Virus record (IMG/VR): IMGVR_UViG_2872152978_000009
Source: a virus
Taxonomy: Duplodnaviria > Heunggongvirae > Uroviricota > Caudoviricetes
Length of the DNA: 51,465 nt
Direction: 5' to 3' (one strand)
This document shows, piece after piece, positions 1,422-13,990 of the stretch. A model generated the notes under the pieces. The model was not told the DNA's origin and made no database searches. It worked only from the letters and a program-made list of their open reading frames with translations. The position numbers and the translations under genes are program-made. Every line of letters starts with the position of its first letter. Position 1 is the first letter of the stretch.

Positions 1422-3896
1422 TTAAAAATCAGCCTGATTCGGGATCAGTTTTTGCCAGATAACTGAAACGTATTTTGCCTGGTAACGGGCGTCATCAAGT
1501 GCATTATGGCGCTCACCTTCGAATGGAATAGCCGTTCTGGCATCGAAGTCTATGGCTTTCCCCAGCTCAACGATTGTGCGTACATCGCGATCGTTGTAGT
1601 AACGCCACGGGCAGGGGATCCCCTGCCGTTCGTATGAACGGCGCAAAATCGTGTTGTCGAAGTTGGCTCCATTTCCCCAGACCTGAACAAAAAATTCACC
1701 GGAGTTTTCGTCGATAAATTCCCGCAATTGTAACAGTGCATCATCTAACGGGATTTCATCGGTCATAATGGCAGATTGCGCTTCGCGTGATTGCTTAAGC
1801 CACCATTTAATGGTGTCCCGATCAATGACCCCGCCAGCAGTTTCCAGATCGATAGTCTTACTAAATTCCGGTCCCATATCTCCGGTTTGCGGATCGAAAA
1901 ATATTGCACCTATTGAGATGATCGGGGCATCAGGATTTTTTCCCATGGTTTCAAGGTCGATCATTAGATGGTCACACGTCCTGCTGGTGGATGTGATTTC
2001 TTGATGACCGTTCACCTTAATTGAGTGATCTGCCGTCTCGCCAGTTTCATTATCGCTATCGTGATGCTGATTGCCGTCAGTGTTCTCCTTGTGTGGATGT
2101 TCAGCGCCTTCCATTTCCTCCGGATCATCTTCCTGAACTTCAACCTGATACTCTTCATCGAATGTTTCCTGGTATGTTGCGTCGCCCATCACCGCGCCAC
2201 AATCAGGGCAGTTGCCGCCGCCGGTCTGACCGCAGGCGGTGCAGACTTTTTCCACTTCCTGTTGCGCCACTGGTTCAGGCTGTTTCGTTTCTGGCTCGTT
2301 TTGTAACGCATTTGGGCTGTTTTGTTCCGCTTTCTGGCCGTTCTGTTCCGTTTCTTGCTGGTTCTGATTCACTGAATCGCGGGTTTCAATCCCCTTCACC
2401 CATTTCGGATCATTCGGGTCGCTAATCCCTGCAACAAATTCACCACGTGATACAGCAAGCAAATTATTGGCGTCAGGCTGGCTGATATTGGCTGCCTGCA
2501 TAATTTTGTTTACTTCGTCAGCGGTAACTTTTACCGGCTCTGGTTGTGCGATCGTGTCAGATGCACCAGTATTTTGTTGTGAACCTGAGTACGTGCCGTT
2601 TTTACGTGCGAAGTATTCCTCTTTTGTGATTTCCGTAGCTCCCAGGGCCAGTGCTTTTTCCAGACCAGAAAGTTTGTTTGCGCGACCGTATTTTTCGCCG
2701 TCCTTATCGGTGAAAAGGAAGTAGAACGGTCCCTCACGCTCTACAGATGGTTCGTCTTCCACTTCGCATTCGGTTTTTTCGTTGTCCGGCATTGCCGTTT
2801 CCACTGCATCAGTTTCTGGTACTGGTGACGGGAGAGTACCAGCTGTGCCCTGATTTGTTCCTTCGTCATCTTCAAACACGCCCTTGGTAGTCAGGTATTC
2901 AGTGATGTATTTGTTCAGTGCTACGGGATCTTTGTGAATGTCGATCGGACGCTCACGGACAAGGCCAAAAATAGTCTGACGGTCGTAGCGAACGGCATCG
3001 GGTTGTTTGCGCATTGATGCGGAAATGCGCTTCCAGTCTTCGCGATCTTTGTCGATAACTTCATTTTTTGCCCAGCGATGGATGCTGCCGTCAATGTTTC
3101 CGGTATCAATATCGCCAGGCCAGAGAGCGTAGGCCAGTTCTTCATCCAGCGTTTTCCATGTCTGCTTGTATTCGCGACAAATGGCGGCAGTGACTGGGTT
3201 GATTTTTCCTGCTGAGTTTTCAGTGTTCTGTTGATTGACTCTGGCGCTGGCGAGATCAACAACAGACGTGTATTTTCCAGTCTCTTTGCGCTCTGCGTCC
3301 TGCCGTTTTTTCCAGTTACGTAATTCAGCCTGAATTTCGGGCCATTTGGCACCCGGATTACATTTGTGTTTAACCCATCCGATAGCGAACAGTTTGCGTT
3401 CCGGATACATAGCGTTAATTTCAGGCGTTTTCATCAGTGCTTCAACGATATGCCCGTCAAAGGTAGCAACGTCTTCCTGCAGTAATTCCTGCGCGTCAAT
3501 CGCCATATCAACGGTGATGTTTTCACATGTACCGAACTTAACCAGGACCGCGTTCTGTACTTCAAGGGACAGCTTGTCAAAATTGACGTTCATCGGATCG
3601 GATTCTGGTTCGACTGGAATAAAGGAAGCGGATTCCTCATCCCAGCGGTTTTCCTGCATATATTCAGCATCCCAGGAATCGAGGGCAGGGCGGGGTATAC
3701 CGGGTTTATCCTCGCAGACAAGAAATTTATAAGCGCAGTCCTGAGCAGCCGGATAATGTTCCAGGAATTGCCAGTGAAATTTTGCGCGGGCGCGACGTTC
3801 ATCACCGGCTTCAATGGCAGTGGCTACAGCGACGGCACCTTCTTCCTTTATTGCCTGTTCGTCCGGAATGGCGGCGCAAATAAAGACTTTACTCAT
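1422..3896 (-). CDS. Large prophage exonuclease, RecE-like architecture with C-terminal DnaQ/DEDDh-type 3'-5' exonuclease domain
   Basis: 824-aa ORF; acidic low-complexity centre, Cys4 motif CTACGQTGGGNCPDCG, C-terminal DLETMG...ALDDA exonuclease-type motifs; no partner annealase ORF adjacent. Confidence 0.75.
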   Translation of the reverse strand: MSKVFICAAIPDEQAIKEEGAVAVATAIEAGDERRARAKFHWQFLEHYPAAQDCAYKFLVCEDKPGIPRPALDSWDAEYMQENRWDEESASFIPVEPESDPMNVNFDKLSLEVQNAVLVKFGTCENITVDMAIDAQELLQEDVATFDGHIVEALMKTPEINAMYPERKLFAIGWVKHKCNPGAKWPEIQAELRNWKKRQDAERKETGKYTSVVDLASARVNQQNTENSAGKINPVTAAICREYKQTWKTLDEELAYALWPGDIDTGNIDGSIHRWAKNEVIDKDREDWKRISASMRKQPDAVRYDRQTIFGLVRERPIDIHKDPVALNKYITEYLTTKGVFEDDEGTNQGTAGTLPSPVPETDAVETAMPDNEKTECEVEDEPSVEREGPFYFLFTDKDGEKYGRANKLSGLEKALALGATEITKEEYFARKNGTYSGSQQNTGASDTIAQPEPVKVTADEVNKIMQAANISQPDANNLLAVSRGEFVAGISDPNDPKWVKGIETRDSVNQNQQETEQNGQKAEQNSPNALQNEPETKQPEPVAQQEVEKVCTACGQTGGGNCPDCGAVMGDATYQETFDEEYQVEVQEDDPEEMEGAEHPHKENTDGNQHHDSDNETGETADHSIKVNGHQEITSTSRTCDHLMIDLETMGKNPDAPIISIGAIFFDPQTGDMGPEFSKTIDLETAGGVIDRDTIKWWLKQSREAQSAIMTDEIPLDDALLQLREFIDENSGEFFVQVWGNGANFDNTILRRSYERQGIPCPWRYYNDRDVRTIVELGKAIDFDARTAIPFEGERHNALDDARYQAKYVSVIWQKLIPNQADF

Positions 3897-8353: not shown

Positions 8354-9142
8354 TTGTCGGAGGAAATTTTAATGGAAACCGTATTTGACGCACTGAAAGC
8401 AATGGGAAAAGCCACATCGGTAGAACTGGCCGCGCGACTTGATATCAGTCGTGAAGAGGTTCTCAACGAGCTGTGGGAACTCAAAAGAAATGGCGTCGTT
8501 GATAAAACTGGTCACACCTGGTTTCTGGCTGGCGAAGGTGAATCCCGGGTAACCGAAGAGCGGCCAGTAAAATCTGAAGCACAGGATATGCTGACCGGGG
8601 AGGTCGAACAAAAAGTTACCGCAGACATGATGATTGAGTTTATCGGTCAGGATGGTGCTAAAACGTGTGAGGAACTGGCGGGTAAGTTCGGCGTCAGTAC
8701 TCGCAAGGTTGCCTCCACGCTGGCGGTGGTAACCGCAACGGGGCGGCTGGCACGCGTTAATCAGAACGGTAAATTTCGTTACTGCATGCCGGGCGATAAT
8801 TTACCAGCAGAGCCGAAAGCCGCGCTGGTAACGGAAAGTGATGGTAAGGCCTTTCCTCAGCCAGCAGGTGCTGCGTTACCAGTCCGGGAAGCCGCAACAC
8901 AGGAAGAAATTAAAACAGAAACTGTGGCGGACATTGTGCAGCCGTTGCCATCGTTTACCGAAACGCAAGCAGATGAGCTGATTTTTCCGTCCCTTCGCAG
9001 GGCAAACCTGGCGCTGCGCAGGGCGAAAAGTGATGTTCAGAAGTGGGAGCGAGTCTGCGCCGCGCTGCGGGAGCTGAACAAGCACCGGGATATTGTTCGA
9101 CAGATTACTGATTCTTCCCGCCGTGTTGTATCGGAAAAGTGA
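8354..9142 (+). CDS. Hypothetical prophage protein (DUF1627-like, winged helix N-terminus)
   Basis: 262-aa ORF; N-terminal wHTH-like segment [30 protein letters not shown]. Confidence 0.6.
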
Positions 9143-9550
9143 TTGCCGGAGGCGCTTATGGCAAAAGTATTTACACCAGAAGAGCGGGAAGAAGTGAAGG
9201 CGCGCATTGTGGAATTCGTGCGCCTGAGCGGACGAGAAACTTTTCGACAACTGGCAGATAAAACGGGTGTCAGTAAGACCGCTATTCGTCGTTTATCTGG
9301 TGCGCTTGCGGCCAGTGGTGATGTCTGGCTCTCTGGTTGCGGGGTATTTCCATCAGAGCAGGCGTATCGCGTATGGCGTAAGACACCGGAGAAGGCTGCT
9401 GACCCGACACTGATTCGAAAGTTACCTGACGGAGAAATACGTCGTTACAACAGACGGCAGAACATAATTTGTCGTGAGTGCCGCCAGAGCGAAGTTATGC
9501 AGCGTGTGCTGGCGTTCTATCGGGGAAACTTTCAGGAGGTGATGGAGTGA
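9143..9550 (+). CDS. Hypothetical protein with putative HTH
   Basis: 135-aa ORF directly following the previous stop; segment RQLADKTGVSKTAIRRL. Confidence 0.5.
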   Translation: MPEALMAKVFTPEEREEVKARIVEFVRLSGRETFRQLADKTGVSKTAIRRLSGALAASGDVWLSGCGVFPSEQAYRVWRKTPEKAADPTLIRKLPDGEIRRYNRRQNIICRECRQSEVMQRVLAFYRGNFQEVME

Positions 9551-9843
9551 GGGTCAGAGTTTATATTGCCGGTCCAATGACGGGATATGAAAATTTCAAC
9601 CGTGAGGCGTTTCACAAGGCGGAAGAGGAACTGAAACGGGAAGGGCATACCGTCTTAAACCCGGCAGTACTTCCGGACGGGCTGACACAGCCGCACTACA
9701 TGGATATTTGCATGGCAATGATTCGTTGTGTGGATGCGATTTACATGCTGAATGGCTGGCAGCGGTCAGCGGGCGCTAAGGCAGAGCTGGCACTGGCGGA
9801 GAAACTGGGGCATGCAGTGATTTATCAGGAGGTGGCTCAATGA
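9547..9843 (+). CDS. DUF4406 / nucleoside 2-deoxyribosyltransferase-like protein
   Basis: GTG start after AGGAGG; motif VYIAGPMTG typical of the deoxyribosyltransferase-like fold. Confidence 0.6.
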   Translation: MRVRVYIAGPMTGYENFNREAFHKAEEELKREGHTVLNPAVLPDGLTQPHYMDICMAMIRCVDAIYMLNGWQRSAGAKAELALAEKLGHAVIYQEVAQ

Positions 9844-10301
9844 GAGAGGTTAACTATGAGGCGCTTCGTGAGGCAGCACAAAACTATCAGTCGACGCTGG
9901 CGTGGTATCAGGCTATCCCGGACAGCCCAAATGCTGAACGGGATTGTGATGCGGCTCTTGCTGCGTTTAAGCGTCACATCCGTCATCGGGAAGCGGATAT
10001 TATCGCTGATTTGCTGGATGGACTGGAAGAAGCAAAATCACAACTCAAAGAGCAGCGTGAGTATTACGAAGGCGTTATCTCTGATGGGAGCAAGCGTATT
10101 GCTGAACTGGAAGCGCGGGAAGTTCAATTACCGACTCGCTACGACCTTCGATATGGACACCCGATAAATGCAGATGAGCGACATGTCATGATACCTAAAG
10201 AAAATGGCAGTTGGCTTTACCTGATTGACCTAGAACACGCATTACGCGTCGCTGGCATTCGCATCAAAGGAGAGGAGCATGGAAATAAAACCAGAGGATG
10301 A
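9840..10301 (+). CDS. Hypothetical coiled-coil protein (Ead/Ea22-like position)
   Basis: 153-aa ORF with ATGA overlap to upstream gene. Confidence 0.5.
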   Translation: MREVNYEALREAAQNYQSTLAWYQAIPDSPNAERDCDAALAAFKRHIRHREADIIADLLDGLEEAKSQLKEQREYYEGVISDGSKRIAELEAREVQLPTRYDLRYGHPINADERHVMIPKENGSWLYLIDLEHALRVAGIRIKGEEHGNKTRG

Positions 10302-10635
10302 GTTAAGCAATATCGTTTTATTTCCGGTAAAAGAGGATGACCCTCGTAATCAGGTTAATTTTCTTTATGAGCCATCGGAAAGACCATATTGTCATCACGC
10401 CTCTGTTCGGGTTGACGAAAAAGAGCGTCAGGTCCGCTGTAAAATCTGCGGTGCAGTTGTGGAGCCATTTGACTGGATGCTCTCTGTGGCGAAAAGAGAA
10501 ACCAGACTGGCAGATGATGTAAGGCTATTGCGCCAGGAGGAACAGGAAAGGCGGAAAAATATAGAAAAGTTAATTCAGATTGAGCGTAACGCGAAAGCGC
10601 GGATATGCAGGGCGACAAAATCCAGAACTGAATAA
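10279..10635 (+). CDS. Hypothetical protein with putative zinc ribbon
   Basis: 118-aa ORF; CHH...CKIC Cys/His cluster. Confidence 0.5.
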   Translation: MEIKPEDELSNIVLFPVKEDDPRNQVNFLYEPSERPYCHHASVRVDEKERQVRCKICGAVVEPFDWMLSVAKRETRLADDVRLLRQEEQERRKNIEKLIQIERNAKARICRATKSRTE

Positions 10636-10730
10636 TTAAATTTAGCACTGTAAATAAAATCAAATCCTTAACCGGAGGGATTTCTGCACCCTCAGAACAT
10701 CAGGAGGCCGTCCGAAAGGGCGGTAGTGAA

Positions 10731-10913
10731 ATGCGAAAATTCAAAATAATTATTGAAACGGGAATAGCCGGTGGAGATTTCGAGGATGAATTCGAAGTGG
10801 ATGATGATGCAACACCAGATGAAATACAGGATGAAGCTAAAGATATTTTCTTTAACTACTGCAATTACTCATACCACGAAATAAAAGACGAAGAGGAAGA
10901 ACAAAATGGCTGA
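10731..10913 (+). CDS. Small highly acidic protein
   Basis: 60-aa ORF, more than 30 percent Asp/Glu (FEDEFEVDDDATPDEIQDEAKD...KDEEEEQ). Confidence 0.45.
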   Translation: MRKFKIIIETGIAGGDFEDEFEVDDDATPDEIQDEAKDIFFNYCNYSYHEIKDEEEEQNG

Positions 10914-11082
10914 TTTTGGTTCAACTAAATATAACGCCAGTTTTGAAGAATGGCATGAACTGTTAATGGATTATGCAGAGTTACGCGGTGGAAGTGCCGC
11001 TGATGCTGAAGCATGGCGTGATGATTATGAAGCAGGGAAAACACCGGTCGAAGCATATTGTGATGAGTGGGGCGATGAATGA
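10906..11082 (+). CDS. Small acidic protein (58 aa)
   Basis: ORF below the 60-aa track cutoff, found by eye; overlaps both neighbours by a few bases; coordinates may be off by 1. Confidence 0.3.
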   Translation: MADFGSTKYNASFEEWHELLMDYAELRGGSAADAEAWRDDYEAGKTPVEAYCDEWGDE

Positions 11083-11438
11083 GCGAGATTAATTATCAGG
11101 AAGGGCATGAAAAGGCAGGGCAGGCAAAACCAGTGGCATGGCGATATCGCTACGTGAAAAAAGGCGTTACAGACTTTCAGGGGAAGCAGTGGGTTGGTGA
11201 CTGGAAATATGTCCCGACAAAAGAGGATTGTAACGACAGACCAAACTATGAAATTCAGGCGTTATTCACGGCCCCGCCAGCTTCGGTGACATCAGAAGGA
11301 CTGGTTAAAGCTGTGCGCTTTTATGAACAGGTACGGCGTGAGGATCCGCCAGTTGAAACCGGAGCATGGAAAGACGCTATTGACTGGGTACTCAAGGAGG
11401 CCTGCCTGGTTGTAAACACGGGCATCAAAGGAGGCTGA
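11079..11438 (+). CDS. Hypothetical protein
   Basis: 119-aa ORF in tightly packed co-directional array. Confidence 0.5.
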   Translation: MSEINYQEGHEKAGQAKPVAWRYRYVKKGVTDFQGKQWVGDWKYVPTKEDCNDRPNYEIQALFTAPPASVTSEGLVKAVRFYEQVRREDPPVETGAWKDAIDWVLKEACLVVNTGIKGG

Positions 11439-11654
11439 ATGGGTATTGCCGCAAGTTATACCATGCATCTCTATTGTGATTGCCGCCAGTGTACGGATGG
11501 CAAATATCAGTCGCCAGATTTTGGTGAGTATATCGGTACGTCATGGGCTGGCTGTGCAAAAGAGGCACGTAAAGATGGGTGGCGAATAAGTGCCGACAAA
11601 ACGCGTGCTTTTGCGCCAGGGCATAAAATTTTGAGGAGCAACAAAGGAGAGTGA
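11439..11654 (+). CDS. Hypothetical small Cys-rich protein
   Basis: 71-aa ORF abutting upstream stop; CDCRQC motif. Confidence 0.5.
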   Translation: MGIAASYTMHLYCDCRQCTDGKYQSPDFGEYIGTSWAGCAKEARKDGWRISADKTRAFAPGHKILRSNKGE

Positions 11655-11655
11655 T

Positions 11656-11874
11656 GTGCCTACATTATTCAGAAAAGAATATCCGCGAAAAAGTAGAGCG
11701 ACAGAATTTTTGTTTCTCATTCTGTTTATCGTGTTGATGATACCGATATCCCCGTTAATTCTGGTATGGGGAATCGGAAAAATAATTGAGCCAGTTATTG
11801 AATTGTATAACGACGTGGTATGGGCTCCGTTCAACACACTGCACAATAAAATTAATCCGTATAAGGAAAACTGA
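11656..11874 (+). CDS. Small membrane protein
   Basis: 72-aa ORF with GTG start; hydrophobic core FLFLILFIVLMIPISPLILVWGIG. Confidence 0.45.
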   Translation: MPTLFRKEYPRKSRATEFLFLILFIVLMIPISPLILVWGIGKIIEPVIELYNDVVWAPFNTLHNKINPYKEN

Positions 11875-11875
11875 T

Positions 11876-12139
11876 ATGGCAACTTTGACAAAAAAAGAAC
11901 AGGCATGGTTGAACGAATTACAGGACGTTCTTGATCGCTGTCCATCACCGAAAAAAATTGGTTTTTACACCATTGGCGATAAAAGCATTTACCTGTATGA
12001 CCTGCGCCGCATGGATGAAATCATGGAGGCTCTTGATAATCGTTCGTCAATGGATTGGTGTGTTGCTGTCCATGATATGAATGCAGGGTTTGATGAAAAG
12101 ATTTTGTTCCCCTCATCAGTTGAAAGAACTGCGGGTTAA
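11876..12139 (+). CDS. Hypothetical protein
   Basis: ATG at 11876 within track ORF 11786-12139; 87 aa. Confidence 0.5.
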   Translation: MATLTKKEQAWLNELQDVLDRCPSPKKIGFYTIGDKSIYLYDLRRMDEIMEALDNRSSMDWCVAVHDMNAGFDEKILFPSSVERTAG

Positions 12140-12149
12140 GGAGTAACAC

Positions 12150-12317
12150 ATGACCACTATTACCAAAGAACGTATTGAATTGTTCATTAAAAACCCGCTT
12201 GAAAACGGGCTTACCCGTGGTGAACAAATGGAACTGGCACGGATTGCGCTGGCATCGCTGGAAGCAGAGCCGGTTGTGTTCTGGTTTGAAAAATATCAAG
12301 AAGGGGCTACGGCATGA
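12150..12317 (+). CDS. Small hypothetical protein (55 aa)
   Basis: ATG preceded by AAGGAG; below track cutoff; stop overlaps next ATG. Confidence 0.35.
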
Positions 12318-12517
12318 CGACTTTTACCAGAGAGCAGTTAATAGCTCACGCAGAGGAGACTATTGAAGCACAGAGACTGTGCATACCGGGCACAATCGAC
12401 CATGACATCATCCGCACATATAAGATTAGACTGGCCCCCTGAATCTCCAGACAACCAGTATCACTTAAATAAGTGATAGTCTTAATACTAGTTTTTAGAC
12501 TAGTCATTGGAGTACAG

Positions 12518-12883
12518 ATGATTGATGTCTTAGGGCCGGAGAAACGCAGACGGCGTACCACACAGGAAAAGATCGCAATTGTTCAGCAGAGCTTTGAACC
12601 GGGGATGACGGTCTCCCTCGTTGCCCGGCAACATGGTGTAGCAGCCAGCCAGTTATTTCTCTGGCGTAAGCAATACCAGGAAGGAAGTCTTACTGCTGTG
12701 GCCGCCGGAGAACAGGTTGTTCCTGCCTCTGAACTTGCTGCCGCCATGAAGCAGATTAAAGAACTCCAGCGCCTGCTCGGCAAGAAAACGATGGAAAATG
12801 AACTCCTCAAAGAAGCCGTTGAATATGGACGGGCAAAAAAGTGGATAGCGCACGCGCCCTTATTGCCCGGGGATGGGGAGTAA
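12518..12883 (+). CDS. insC: IS2 transposase OrfA (InsC)
   Basis: 121-aa product [18 protein letters not shown]... recalled as IS2 InsC. Confidence 0.9.
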
Positions 12884-13746
12884 GCTTAGTCAGCCGTTGT
12901 CTCCGGGTGTCGCGTGCGCAGTTGCACGTCATTCTCAGACGAACCGATGACTGGATGGATGGCCGCCGCAGTCGTCACACTGATGATACGGATGTGCTTC
13001 TCCGTATACACCATGTTATCGGAGAGCTGCCCACGTATGGTTATCGTCGGGTATGGGCGCTGCTTCGCAGACAGGCAGAACTTGATGGTATGCCTGCGAT
13101 CAATGCCAAACGTGTTTACCGGATCATGCGCCAGAATGCGCTGTTGCTTGAGCGAAAACCTGCTGTACCGCCATCGAAACGGGCACATACAGGCAGAGTG
13201 GCCGTGAAAGAAAGCAATCAGCGATGGTGCTCTGACGGGTTCGAGTTCTGCTGTGATAACGGAGAGAGACTGCGTGTCACGTTCGCGCTGGACTGCTGTG
13301 ATCGTGAGGCACTGCACTGGGCGGTGACTACCGGCGGCTTCAACAGTGAAACAGTACAGGACGTCATGCTGGGAGCGGTGGAACGCCGCTTCGGCAACGA
13401 TCTTCCGTCGTCTCCAGTGGAGTGGCTGACGGATAATGGTTCATGCTACCGGGCTAATGAAACACGCCAGTTCGCCCGGATGTTGGGACTTGAACCGAAG
13501 AACACGGCGGTGCGGAGTCCGGAGAGTAACGGAATAGCAGAGAGCTTCGTGAAAACGATAAAGCGTGACTACATCAGTATCATGCCCAAACCAGACGGGT
13601 TAACGGCAGCAAAGAACCTTGCAGAGGCGTTCGAGCATTATAACGAATGGCATCCGCATAGTGCGCTGGGTTATCGCTCGCCACGGGAATATCTGCGGCA
13701 GCGGGCTTGTAATGGGTTAAGTGATAACAGATGTCTGGAAATATAG
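12841..13746 (+). CDS. insD: IS2 transposase OrfB (InsD)
   Basis: 301-aa product recalled as IS2 InsD; overlaps insC in -1 frame. Confidence 0.9.
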
Positions 13747-13990
13747 GGGCAAATCCAAAGATGGATATTGCTGTTCTGGAAATCGCACTGGTATCGCTGG
13801 CAGCAGAGCCAGCCGGTAAATTGCATGAATACAAACCAGTGGGATATCAGCGTCTGGTCGATGAGTTAACCATGCTGGTAAAGCAGTTAACCTGGCAACT
13901 GAGGAAAGCGAAGCCAGACTGCAAATTACCGGATAAGGCGATGAGTTATCTGGAGCGGAACGGACTGATAAGCGTGGAGGATATTTTACG

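What the first reader, a model, noticed from the sequence alone, without database searches (positions are those of the whole stretch)
10731..11082. Two consecutive very small, highly acidic proteins in the accessory block
ORFs 10731-10913 (60 aa) and 10906-11082 (58 aa) are strongly Asp/Glu-rich. Small acidic phage proteins are frequently DNA mimics or other inhibitors of host defence (the anti-restriction Ocr/ArdA logic), so they are candidate anti-defence genes. This is inferred from composition only.
Basis: inference. Interest (0 to 1): 0.45.

Follow-up and report, generated by a model that had tools for sequence, protein, structure and literature searches.

The report
Two small acidic prophage accessory proteins
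Two tiny, very acidic genes in an E. coli lambda-like prophage are real, conserved and very common, but their function is unknown; blocking a host defence is a reasonable, untested guess.

Summary
ORF A (10731-10913, 60 aa, 33% Asp+Glu, net charge -15) and ORF B (10906-11082, 58 aa, 28% Asp+Glu, net -12) are the two most acidic ORFs in the window. Both are under strong purifying selection (median dN/dS 0.07 and 0.09).

A belongs to Pfam DUF7167 and PHROG 1997. B belongs to PHROG 519 and has no Pfam family. The two are unrelated: A is predicted as a beta-beta-alpha-beta domain and B as a three-helix bundle.

In E. coli lambda-like prophages they travel together behind a conserved 95-nt leader, as a cassette that is present or absent. 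It is found in about 32% of complete E. coli genomes. Distant homologs occur separately. A is found in Klebsiella, Serratia and Pseudomonas prophages and probably in Gram-positive phages. B is found in about 170 Ackermannviridae and 554 plasmids.

Neither protein resembles Ocr, ArdA or any solved anti-defence protein by sequence or fold, and no experiment exists. The acidity is conserved across both families, which fits a protein that binds and blocks a nucleic-acid-binding protein. An anti-defence role is the leading guess (about 0.35) but is not shown. Both are ordinary members of known families of unknown function. Interest is modest.

The parts
10636..10730 (+). Conserved 95-nt non-coding leader. 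It holds hairpin 1 (10675-10693, GAGGG / 9-nt loop / CCCTC), an AGGAGG (10702-10707) and hairpin 2 (10707-10724, GCCGTCC-GAAA-GGGCGGT). Hairpin 2 lies between the AGGAGG and the ATG of ORF A.
   Evidence: The leader is kept in 27 distinct variants whatever gene lies upstream, and conservation begins at the upstream stop codon. MFE is -24.3 kcal/mol. Pairing is kept in 96% of cells, but that is no better than shuffled controls, so the structure is unproven. There is no Rfam match. The same leader precedes a different gene in E. coli strain 405.
10731..10913 (+). ORF A: a 60-aa acidic protein (net -15) of Pfam DUF7167 / PHROG 1997. Predicted topology is beta(2-9)-beta(16-23)-alpha(29-40)-beta(46-51) followed by an acidic tail. 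The conserved core motif is FEV(E/D)DDATxEEIxxEA.
   Evidence: ORF, family, composition; AlphaFold2, pLDDT 76.4; family alignment; dN/dS 0.067; conserved acidic columns D24, D25, D26, E31, E35, E50.
10906..11082 (+). ORF B: a 58-aa acidic protein (net -12) of PHROG 519, with no Pfam family. It is predicted as a three-helix bundle (H13-27, H34-42, H47-55). The family motif is F-x-x-W...L..A...GGS.AD..AWR.DY.AG.TP.EAW.DEWG. Its Shine-Dalgarno sequence (GAGGA, 10893-10897) lies within the Glu codons of A's tail.
   Evidence: 28 (AlphaFold2, pLDDT 80.4); 33 and 36 (77 representative clusters; W37 invariant); 61 (dN/dS 0.088).

Best explanation
A and B are two unrelated accessory proteins of a lambda-like E. 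coli prophage. Both are really translated. They are transcribed without a promoter of their own, as part of the rightward early operon, and they are translationally coupled.

Each folds into one small compact domain whose surface carries a conserved cluster of Asp/Glu residues. The most likely mode of action for each, acting separately, is one-to-one binding: the acidic face occupies the basic, nucleic-acid-binding surface of a bacterial protein and blocks it. The most likely class of target is a widespread anti-phage or anti-plasmid defence nuclease, such as a restriction-type enzyme. That would make them anti-defence proteins of two new families.

Shown: the genes, their conservation, their folds at moderate model confidence, their conserved acidity, their distribution and their cassette behaviour. 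Inferred: that they bind another protein, that the acidic face is the binding face, and that the target is a defence system.
For: - They are real genes under purifying selection.
- The acidity is conserved over family divergence. In A, 14 alignment columns are at least 70% D/E, and the motif FEVDDDATPEEIQDEA is identical between E. coli and a Bacilli phage-like contig. This points to a conserved functional acidic surface and a target found across phyla.
- Their position is between the replication genes and Q, or in the leftward early region among Ea22-like genes in Stx phage ArgO145. No + strand promoter or terminator was found from 9000 to just past the cassette; the only terminator-like site in the 9000-12500 scan lies about 1.2 kb downstream, at 12257-12274.
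- GC content is 40%, against 52% for the window.
- The cassette is present or absent and is found in 1758 of 5426 complete E. coli genomes.
- Each gene moves alone among unrelated mobile elements. B is in about 170 virulent Ackermannviridae and in 554 plasmids, 516 of them conjugative. Plasmids do not shut down their host, which favours defence evasion or regulation over host takeover.
- A is in Serratia, Klebsiella and Pseudomonas prophages, in virulent Klebsiella Guernseyvirinae, and probably in Enterococcus Herelleviridae.
- There is a precedent for a small acidic inhibitor of type IV restriction enzymes that does not have a DNA-like shape: TifA (PMC11322646).
Against: - There is no experimental evidence of any kind, and no paper mentions DUF7167.
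- There is no sequence or structural match to any known anti-defence protein. hhalign of the A family against T7 Gp2 gives probability 0.2%.
- In IncI2 plasmids B lies beyond rep and points away from mobC/oriT, in an operon with a CaiF/GrlA-like regulator, DUF1187, SPFH/NfeD and transfer genes. It is not among the leading-region genes.
- In Kuttervirus-like contigs B lies a few genes downstream of the major capsid gene, not in an obvious early region.
- dN/dS is low (0.07-0.09), with no sign of the diversifying selection often seen in arms-race proteins.
- The peptide motifs are absent from the text-held supplements of two accessory-gene screens, the plasmid leading-region study and the EVADES catalogue.
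Confidence: 0.35

Rival explanations
1. A and B are host-modulating inhibitors of a housekeeping protein rather than of a defence system. The same acidic-decoy mode of action applies, but the target would be, for example, a nucleoid-associated protein, RecBCD/AddAB, a replication or repair factor, a protease or a division protein. Lambda Gam, Kil and CIII and T7 Gp2, Gp5.5 and Gp0.4 work this way.
For: The same structural and compositional evidence applies. Lambda-like early regions are known to hold such inhibitors (established knowledge; dicB and the exonuclease gene are nearby). A's conservation across Gram-negative and Gram-positive phages suits a universal housekeeping target. Low dN/dS suits a slowly evolving target.
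Against: B is common on conjugative plasmids, which have little need for host takeover. The cassette is dispensable and polymorphic. An RNA polymerase inhibitor like Gp2 is implausible in lambda-like phages, which depend on host RNA polymerase throughout, and there is no homology to Gp2.
Confidence: 0.25
2. A and B serve the phage itself. Each would be a small acidic partner, chaperone or regulator of another phage or plasmid protein, for example neutralising a basic neighbour or tuning early gene expression. No host target would be involved.
For: There is tight translational coupling along the string A-B-C-D. A and B are adjacent in 79 of 80 close relatives. In IncI2 plasmids B is coupled in the same way to DUF1187, downstream of a transcriptional regulator. 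In Klebsiella, A is followed directly by a homolog of the Cys-rich protein D.
Against: No partner is conserved. Distant B homologs have unrelated neighbours on both sides, distant A homologs likewise, and A and B separate from each other. Linkage among close relatives is explained by near-identical DNA.
Confidence: 0.15
3. A and B are classical DNA mimics in the strict Ocr/ArdA sense. They would be homodimers whose carboxylates reproduce the phosphate pattern of B-form DNA and so titrate type I restriction enzymes.
For: Net charge density (about -0.2 to -0.25 per residue) equals that of Ocr (compared with the 29% acidic residues quoted for Ocr in PMC11322646). Very small DNA mimics exist, such as phi29 p56 and T7 gp5.9 (own knowledge).
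Confidence: 0.07
4. A and B are spurious or decaying ORFs with no function.
For: They are very short, and A has no canonically spaced Shine-Dalgarno sequence (AGGAGG lies 23 nt upstream of the ATG).
Against: dN/dS is 0.07-0.09. Homologs down to 40-50% identity keep the same length and start. AlphaFold2 models have pLDDT 76-80 from shallow alignments. B has a good Shine-Dalgarno sequence 8 nt upstream.
Confidence: 0.02

Closest known systems
Pfam DUF7167 (PF23768) / PHROG 1997
   Same: ORF A is a full-length member: 54.5 bits against a cut-off of 24.4, covering profile positions 1-60 of 60. It shares the length, start and motif of the family.
   Different: Nothing differs. The family itself has no known function and no literature.
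PHROG 519 (unknown function)
   Same: ORF B matches with E 8.5e-23. Family members in Kuttervirus Salmonella phages were predicted in silico to be anti-CRISPR proteins (PMC9409062).
   Different: B covers only profile positions 76-137 of 143. Nearly all real homologs are stand-alone proteins of 50-65 aa, and the longer forms seen (P0145, the 149-aa ORF in L093) are upstream extensions or fusions. The anti-CRISPR call was never tested.
T7 Ocr and plasmid ArdA (DNA-mimic anti-restriction proteins)
   Same: They are small and very acidic, are expressed early and are carried by mobile elements. Charge density is similar.
   Different: There is no sequence match. Ocr and ArdA are elongated dimers of 116-166 aa subunits that imitate bent B-DNA, whereas A and B are predicted as compact 58-60 aa domains with different folds.
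T7 Gp2 (inhibitor of host RNA polymerase)
T4 Dmd (antitoxin against RnlA/LsoA) and AcrIE2
   Different: There is no sequence similarity and the scores are not significant. Neither is as acidic as A.
TifA (Orf65 of Enterococcus phage phi47), an inhibitor of type IV restriction enzymes
   Same: It is a small acidic phage protein (21% D+E) that blocks a defence nuclease by direct binding, without a DNA-like shape (PMC11322646).
   Different: TifA is described as two globular domains joined by a linker, with an SH3-like N-terminal domain. A and B are single domains of other folds.
Lambda exo-xis region small ORFs (orf60a, orf63, orf61, ea8.5)
   Same: They have the same kind of genomic niche and size. 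In Stx phage ArgO145 the A-B pair sits in that leftward early region.
   Different: BLASTP finds no similarity (best E 0.69).

Membership tests
Pfam DUF7167 (ORF A) | Match to the family HMM above the gathering score over the full domain | tested here: met
   54.5 bits against a cut-off of 24.4, E 1.2e-14, residues 2-53 on profile positions 1-60 of 60. PGAP annotates the identical gene in E. coli 042 as a DUF7167 family protein.
PHROG 519 (ORF B) | Match to the PHROG profile | tested here: met
   E 8.5e-23, residues 1-58 on profile positions 76-137 of 143.
Ocr / ArdA / KlcA(ArdB) anti-restriction families | Sequence match to the Pfam or PHROG families for these proteins | tested here: not met
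   Pfam at E up to 0.1 gives only DUF7167 (plus a weak AnkX_ins match) for A and nothing for B. The best PHROG matches are families of unknown function.
Ocr / ArdA DNA mimics | Elongated dimeric fold whose surface carboxylates copy the phosphate backbone of B-DNA | tested here: not met
DNA mimics in general | Competes with DNA for the binding site of a DNA-binding protein | not testable with these tools
   This needs binding assays or complex prediction.
T7 Gp2-like RNA polymerase inhibitors | Sequence homology to Gp2 | tested here: not met
   hhalign of the A family (A6) against T7 Gp2 gives probability 0.2% over 6 aligned columns.
T7 Gp2-like RNA polymerase inhibitors | Same fold | tested here: inconclusive
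Anti-CRISPR (Acr) loci | Adjacent helix-turn-helix Aca regulator gene | tested here: not met
   The neighbours are a zinc-ribbon-like 118-aa protein upstream and 119-aa and 71-aa proteins downstream. None has a helix-turn-helix match.
Anti-CRISPR (Acr) | Inhibits a CRISPR-Cas system | not testable with these tools
   Only machine-learning predictions exist, for PHROG 519 in Kuttervirus phages (PMC9409062).
Plasmid leading-region anti-defence genes (B homolog in IncI2 plasmids) | Located in the first-entering region next to oriT and transcribed toward oriT | tested here: not met
   In p14EC047a, B lies at 27.96-28.14 kb on the strand pointing away from mobC (43.2 kb) and beyond the rep region. 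The co-oriented small genes with hok, ProQ/FinO and HicAB lie at 32.5-40.5 kb. The position of oriT is inferred from mobC and is not annotated.
Known anti-phage defence proteins (PADLOC) | Match to a defence-system HMM | tested here: not met
   There are no matches at E up to 1 for A, B or six neighbouring proteins.

The most novel reading that the evidence does not exclude
DUF7167 (A) would be a phage-borne inhibitor found across bacterial phyla. Its near-invariant acidic motif FEV(E/D)DDAT-EEI--EA, identical between E. coli prophages and a Bacilli phage-like contig, would dock onto a defence or DNA-handling protein shared by Gram-negative and Gram-positive bacteria. The PHROG 519 protein (B) would be a second, independent inhibitor shared by temperate phages, virulent Ackermannviridae and conjugative plasmids. 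Together they would add two new and very widespread anti-defence families, carried by about a third of E. coli genomes.
Probability: 0.3. Interest if true: 0.6.

Novelty: new member of a known kind. Interest (0 to 1): 0.3.

Why it matters
If either protein blocks a defence system, it would be among the most common anti-defence genes in E. coli. The cassette is in 1758 of 5426 complete genomes, including Stx-converting phages, and the B family is also on mcr-1 IncI2 plasmids and in therapeutic-type Kuttervirus phages. That bears on phage host range, phage-therapy design and plasmid spread. If not, the result is still useful: it assigns two 'hypothetical proteins' to defined families and gives their predicted folds, their conserved residues and a clear experimental route. 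As it stands, this is an ordinary pair of uncharacterised accessory genes.

Tried and rejected
1. A and B as a two-gene system. They are adjacent in 79 of 80 close relatives. However, distant B homologs have no A nearby, distant A homologs have no B within 3 kb, and in IncI2 plasmids B is paired with DUF1187 instead. Rejected: they are two independent modules.

2. Homology to lambda exo-xis ORFs (orf60a, orf63, orf61, ea8.5, ea22, p35). BLASTP shows nothing.

5. A Pfam link for B through DUF5419, which is the label on a Morganella phage homolog. It was not reproduced for nine family members.

6. B as a plasmid leading-region gene. Position and orientation do not fit. Neighbours of B in IncT and large Klebsiella plasmids gave no Pfam matches.

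7. TifA as a relative of the Enterococcus phage A homologs. The paper describes a two-domain protein with an SH3-like domain, so this is not supported.

8. Covariation support for the leader hairpins. It is no better than the shuffled controls.

9. Literature and supplement searches for the families, accessions or peptide motifs. They found only the in-silico anti-CRISPR prediction.

10. The afdb50 fold library was unavailable. One alignment was too diverse for a locus scan. One distant B query found no viral loci.

Full report
**1. The observation**

- ORF A (10731-10913) encodes 60 aa with 20 Asp/Glu and 5 Lys/Arg (net -15, pI 4.05).
- ORF B (10906-11082) encodes 58 aa with 16 Asp/Glu and 4 Lys/Arg (net -12, pI 4.05).

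They are the two most acidic of the 98 ATG-started ORFs of at least 50 aa on the + strand. The third has 19.8% acidic residues.

The stop codon of A and the start codon of B share ATGGCTGA (10906-10913). B and the next gene share ATGA (11079-11082). That gene's stop codon abuts the start of the following one. So A, B, C (119 aa) and D (71 aa) form a translationally coupled string. B's Shine-Dalgarno sequence (GAGGA, 10893-10897) lies within the Glu codons of A's acidic tail.

The A-B stretch is 40% G+C, against 52% for the window.

**2. They are real genes**

- A matches Pfam DUF7167 over its whole length (54.5 bits, cut-off 24.4) and PHROG 1997 (E 2.7e-30). B matches PHROG 519 (E 8.5e-23) and has no Pfam family.
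- Homologs down to about 40-50% identity keep the same start (MRK... for A, MADF... for B) and the same length.
- On codon alignments of unique sequences from the fetched loci, median NG86 dN/dS is 0.067 for A (416 pairs) and 0.088 for B (460 pairs). Every pair is below 0.5.
- The acidity belongs to the families, not to this copy alone. Net charge is -11 to -16 in 27 A homologs, and the median is -10 in 30 B homologs. Specific columns are at least 70% Asp/Glu (A: E9, D19, E22, D24-D26, D30, E31, E35, D38, E50 and the tail; B: E14, E15, D33, E35, D39, D40, E42, E49, D53).

**3. Context**

The window is a lambda-like prophage of E. coli. The collinear prophage of E. coli 042, 99% identical across this block, is annotated in this order:
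- integrase, excisionase, exonuclease, dicB, rha;
- repressor, YdaS and YdaT;
- DnaT-like O protein, P;
- DUF1627, DUF977, DUF4406, Ead/Ea22-like, a hypothetical protein;
- DUF7167 (A), a hypothetical protein (B), further hypothetical proteins;
- hokD, then DUF968, RusA and the Q antiterminator.

So the pair lies in the variable block of the rightward early operon, between replication and Q. From 9000 to just past the cassette the scan found no sigma-70-like promoter on the + strand and no terminator. Its only terminator-like site lies about 1.2 kb downstream, at 12257-12274. In Stx phage ArgO145 the same pair (gp15, gp14) lies instead in the leftward early region, among Ead/Ea22-like genes.

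**4. A cassette with a conserved leader**

In 80 viral contigs whose B is at least 95% identical, A sits at the same -175 nt offset in 79. The genes further out vary.

The 95-nt non-coding stretch before A (10636-10730) is conserved in 27 distinct variants whatever gene lies upstream, and conservation starts at that gene's stop codon. It contains:
- hairpin 1 at 10675-10693;
- an AGGAGG at 10702-10707;
- a GAAA-loop hairpin at 10707-10724, which lies between that AGGAGG and the ATG. The 3' arm of this hairpin also holds an SD-like GGCGGT 6 nt before the ATG.

Pairing is kept in 96% of cells, but that is no better than shuffled controls, because the alignment is 96% identical. The structure is therefore plausible but unproven. 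Rfam has nothing.

The unit leader+A+B covers at least 80% of its length in 1758 of 5426 complete E. coli genomes, with up to four copies per genome. In E. coli strain 405 the same leader runs directly into a C-like gene, with A and B absent. A-B is therefore a dispensable cassette that is present or absent.

**5. A and B are independent**

More distant B homologs have no A homolog nearby and no common neighbour. They come from 157-kb Kuttervirus-like contigs, a 62% G+C contig and other temperate phages.

Distant A homologs in Serratia, Pseudomonas and Klebsiella prophages have no B within 3 kb. In Klebsiella, A is followed directly by a D-like Cys-rich protein.

Among isolated phages:
- B is found in 198 genomes. 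Of these, 174 have less than 60% identity to B, and in the rows listed they are mostly Ackermannviridae-sized (150-160 kb) phages of Salmonella, Klebsiella and Escherichia.
- A is found in 35 genomes. They include virulent Klebsiella Guernseyvirinae (gp18, next to the exonuclease) and 17 Enterococcus phages, those listed being Herelleviridae-sized (~135-150 kb). The Enterococcus copies show 42% identity, E 2e-4, and Pfam DUF7167 at 21.4 bits, just under the cut-off.
- A Bacilli metagenome contig carries a homolog whose core FEVDDDATPEEIQDEA is identical to the E. coli protein.

B is also on 554 plasmids, 516 of them conjugative. About 414 are at 80-90% identity; those listed are ~60-kb plasmids, and the one examined is an IncI2 mcr-1 plasmid. 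A is on only 15.

In the IncI2 plasmid p14EC047a, B is coupled by the same ATGGCTGA overlap to a DUF1187 gene. It lies after a CaiF/GrlA-like regulator and before SPFH/NfeD and transfer genes. It lies beyond rep and points away from mobC, so it is not part of the leading-region gene set.

**6. Structure**

- AlphaFold2 predicts A as beta(2-9)-beta(16-23)-alpha(29-40)-beta(46-51) plus a disordered acidic tail (pLDDT 76.4).
- It predicts B as a three-helix bundle (pLDDT 80.4).
- For B the matches are generic helical lids and UBA-like bundles.
- hhalign of the A family against Gp2 gives probability 0.2%.
- BFVD returns only uncharacterised small phage proteins.
- HMM searches of PDB sequences, PADLOC and NCBIfam give nothing.
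- There is no similarity to the lambda exo-xis small ORFs.

**7. Interpretation**

What is shown: two unrelated, conserved, strongly acidic single-domain proteins, co-expressed with early genes, that behave as a mobile accessory cassette. Each also moves on its own among very different mobile elements.

What is inferred: the conserved acidic face is the functional surface, and each protein acts by binding and blocking a basic, nucleic-acid-binding surface of a bacterial protein.

Anti-defence is the leading class (about 0.35), for three reasons:
- the presence/absence polymorphism;
- carriage of B by conjugative plasmids as well as by temperate and virulent phages;
- precedents such as Ocr and TifA (PMC11322646).

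A housekeeping target (about 0.25) and a role internal to the phage (about 0.15) remain live alternatives. The strict Ocr/ArdA-type DNA mimic reading is disfavoured by sequence and fold (about 0.07). Spurious ORFs are excluded as far as sequence analysis allows.

The only literature touching either family is an in-silico anti-CRISPR prediction for PHROG 519 in Kuttervirus phages (PMC9409062). No paper mentions DUF7167. The peptide motifs are absent from the text-held supplements of two accessory-gene screens, the plasmid leading-region study and the EVADES catalogue.

**8. Verdict**

The genes are ordinary members of known families of unknown function, and they are extremely common in E. coli. 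Interest is modest (0.3). It would rise to about 0.6 if either protein proves to be a broad anti-defence inhibitor.

Noticed in passing
window 10636-10730: A conserved 95-nt leader precedes ORF A whatever gene lies upstream. It holds two hairpins. The second (10707-10724, GAAA loop) lies between an AGGAGG and the ATG, which are 23 nt apart, and its 3' arm contains an SD-like GGCGGT 6 nt before the ATG. This could be a hairpin-bridged or a hairpin-masked ribosome-binding site. Covariation is not significant, and Rfam has nothing.
   Followed up: partly
L121 1501-2003 (E. coli strain 405), compared with window 10636-11438: The same leader precedes a different gene, a 135-aa protein whose C-terminal half matches window gene C, and A and B are absent. 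The leader therefore marks an exchange point where alternative cargo is swapped.
   Followed up: partly
window 12427-13757 and 22330-23660: There are two 100% identical copies of a 1331-bp IS3-family insertion sequence. The first splits a 114-aa ORF that is intact in E. coli 042, leaving the 42-aa stub at 12314-12442.
   Followed up: partly
L111 8793-9177 (IncI2 mcr-1 plasmid p14EC047a): A B homolog (86% identical) is coupled by the same ATGGCTGA overlap to a DUF1187 gene instead of A. Both upstream genes end ...AT GGC TGA, so the left edge of the B module lies inside the last codons of whatever gene precedes it. Database protein P0145 (127 aa) joins the N-terminal part of DUF1187 to a full B, apparently a mis-called or frameshifted reading of this junction.
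   Followed up: partly
L115 3001-3171 (Enterococcus phage Sw5); L119 1501-1698 (Bacilli metagenome contig): DUF7167-like proteins occur in phages of Gram-positive bacteria, and the core motif is almost unchanged. That is an unusually wide host span for a 55-65 aa protein of unknown function.
   Followed up: partly
L087 and L093 around 2971-3180 (about 157-kb Kuttervirus-like contigs): B homologs in Ackermannviridae lie a few genes downstream of the major capsid gene, not in an obvious early region.
   Followed up: no
window 11439-11654; L109 3172-3384: The Cys-rich 71-aa protein D (CDC..C motif, PHROG 926) follows A directly in a Klebsiella prophage. It is another small module that shuffles within this block.
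   Followed up: no
window 9478-9843: A DUF4406 protein, which matches a PHROG annotated as nucleoside 2-deoxyribosyltransferase, lies three genes upstream in the same accessory block. It could act on nucleotides or on DNA modification.
   Followed up: no
L112 and L113 (large Klebsiella plasmid and IncT Providencia plasmid): B homologs (49-52% identical) sit inside long arrays of small hypothetical genes that all point the same way. None of the 10 neighbouring proteins tested has a Pfam match.
   Followed up: partly
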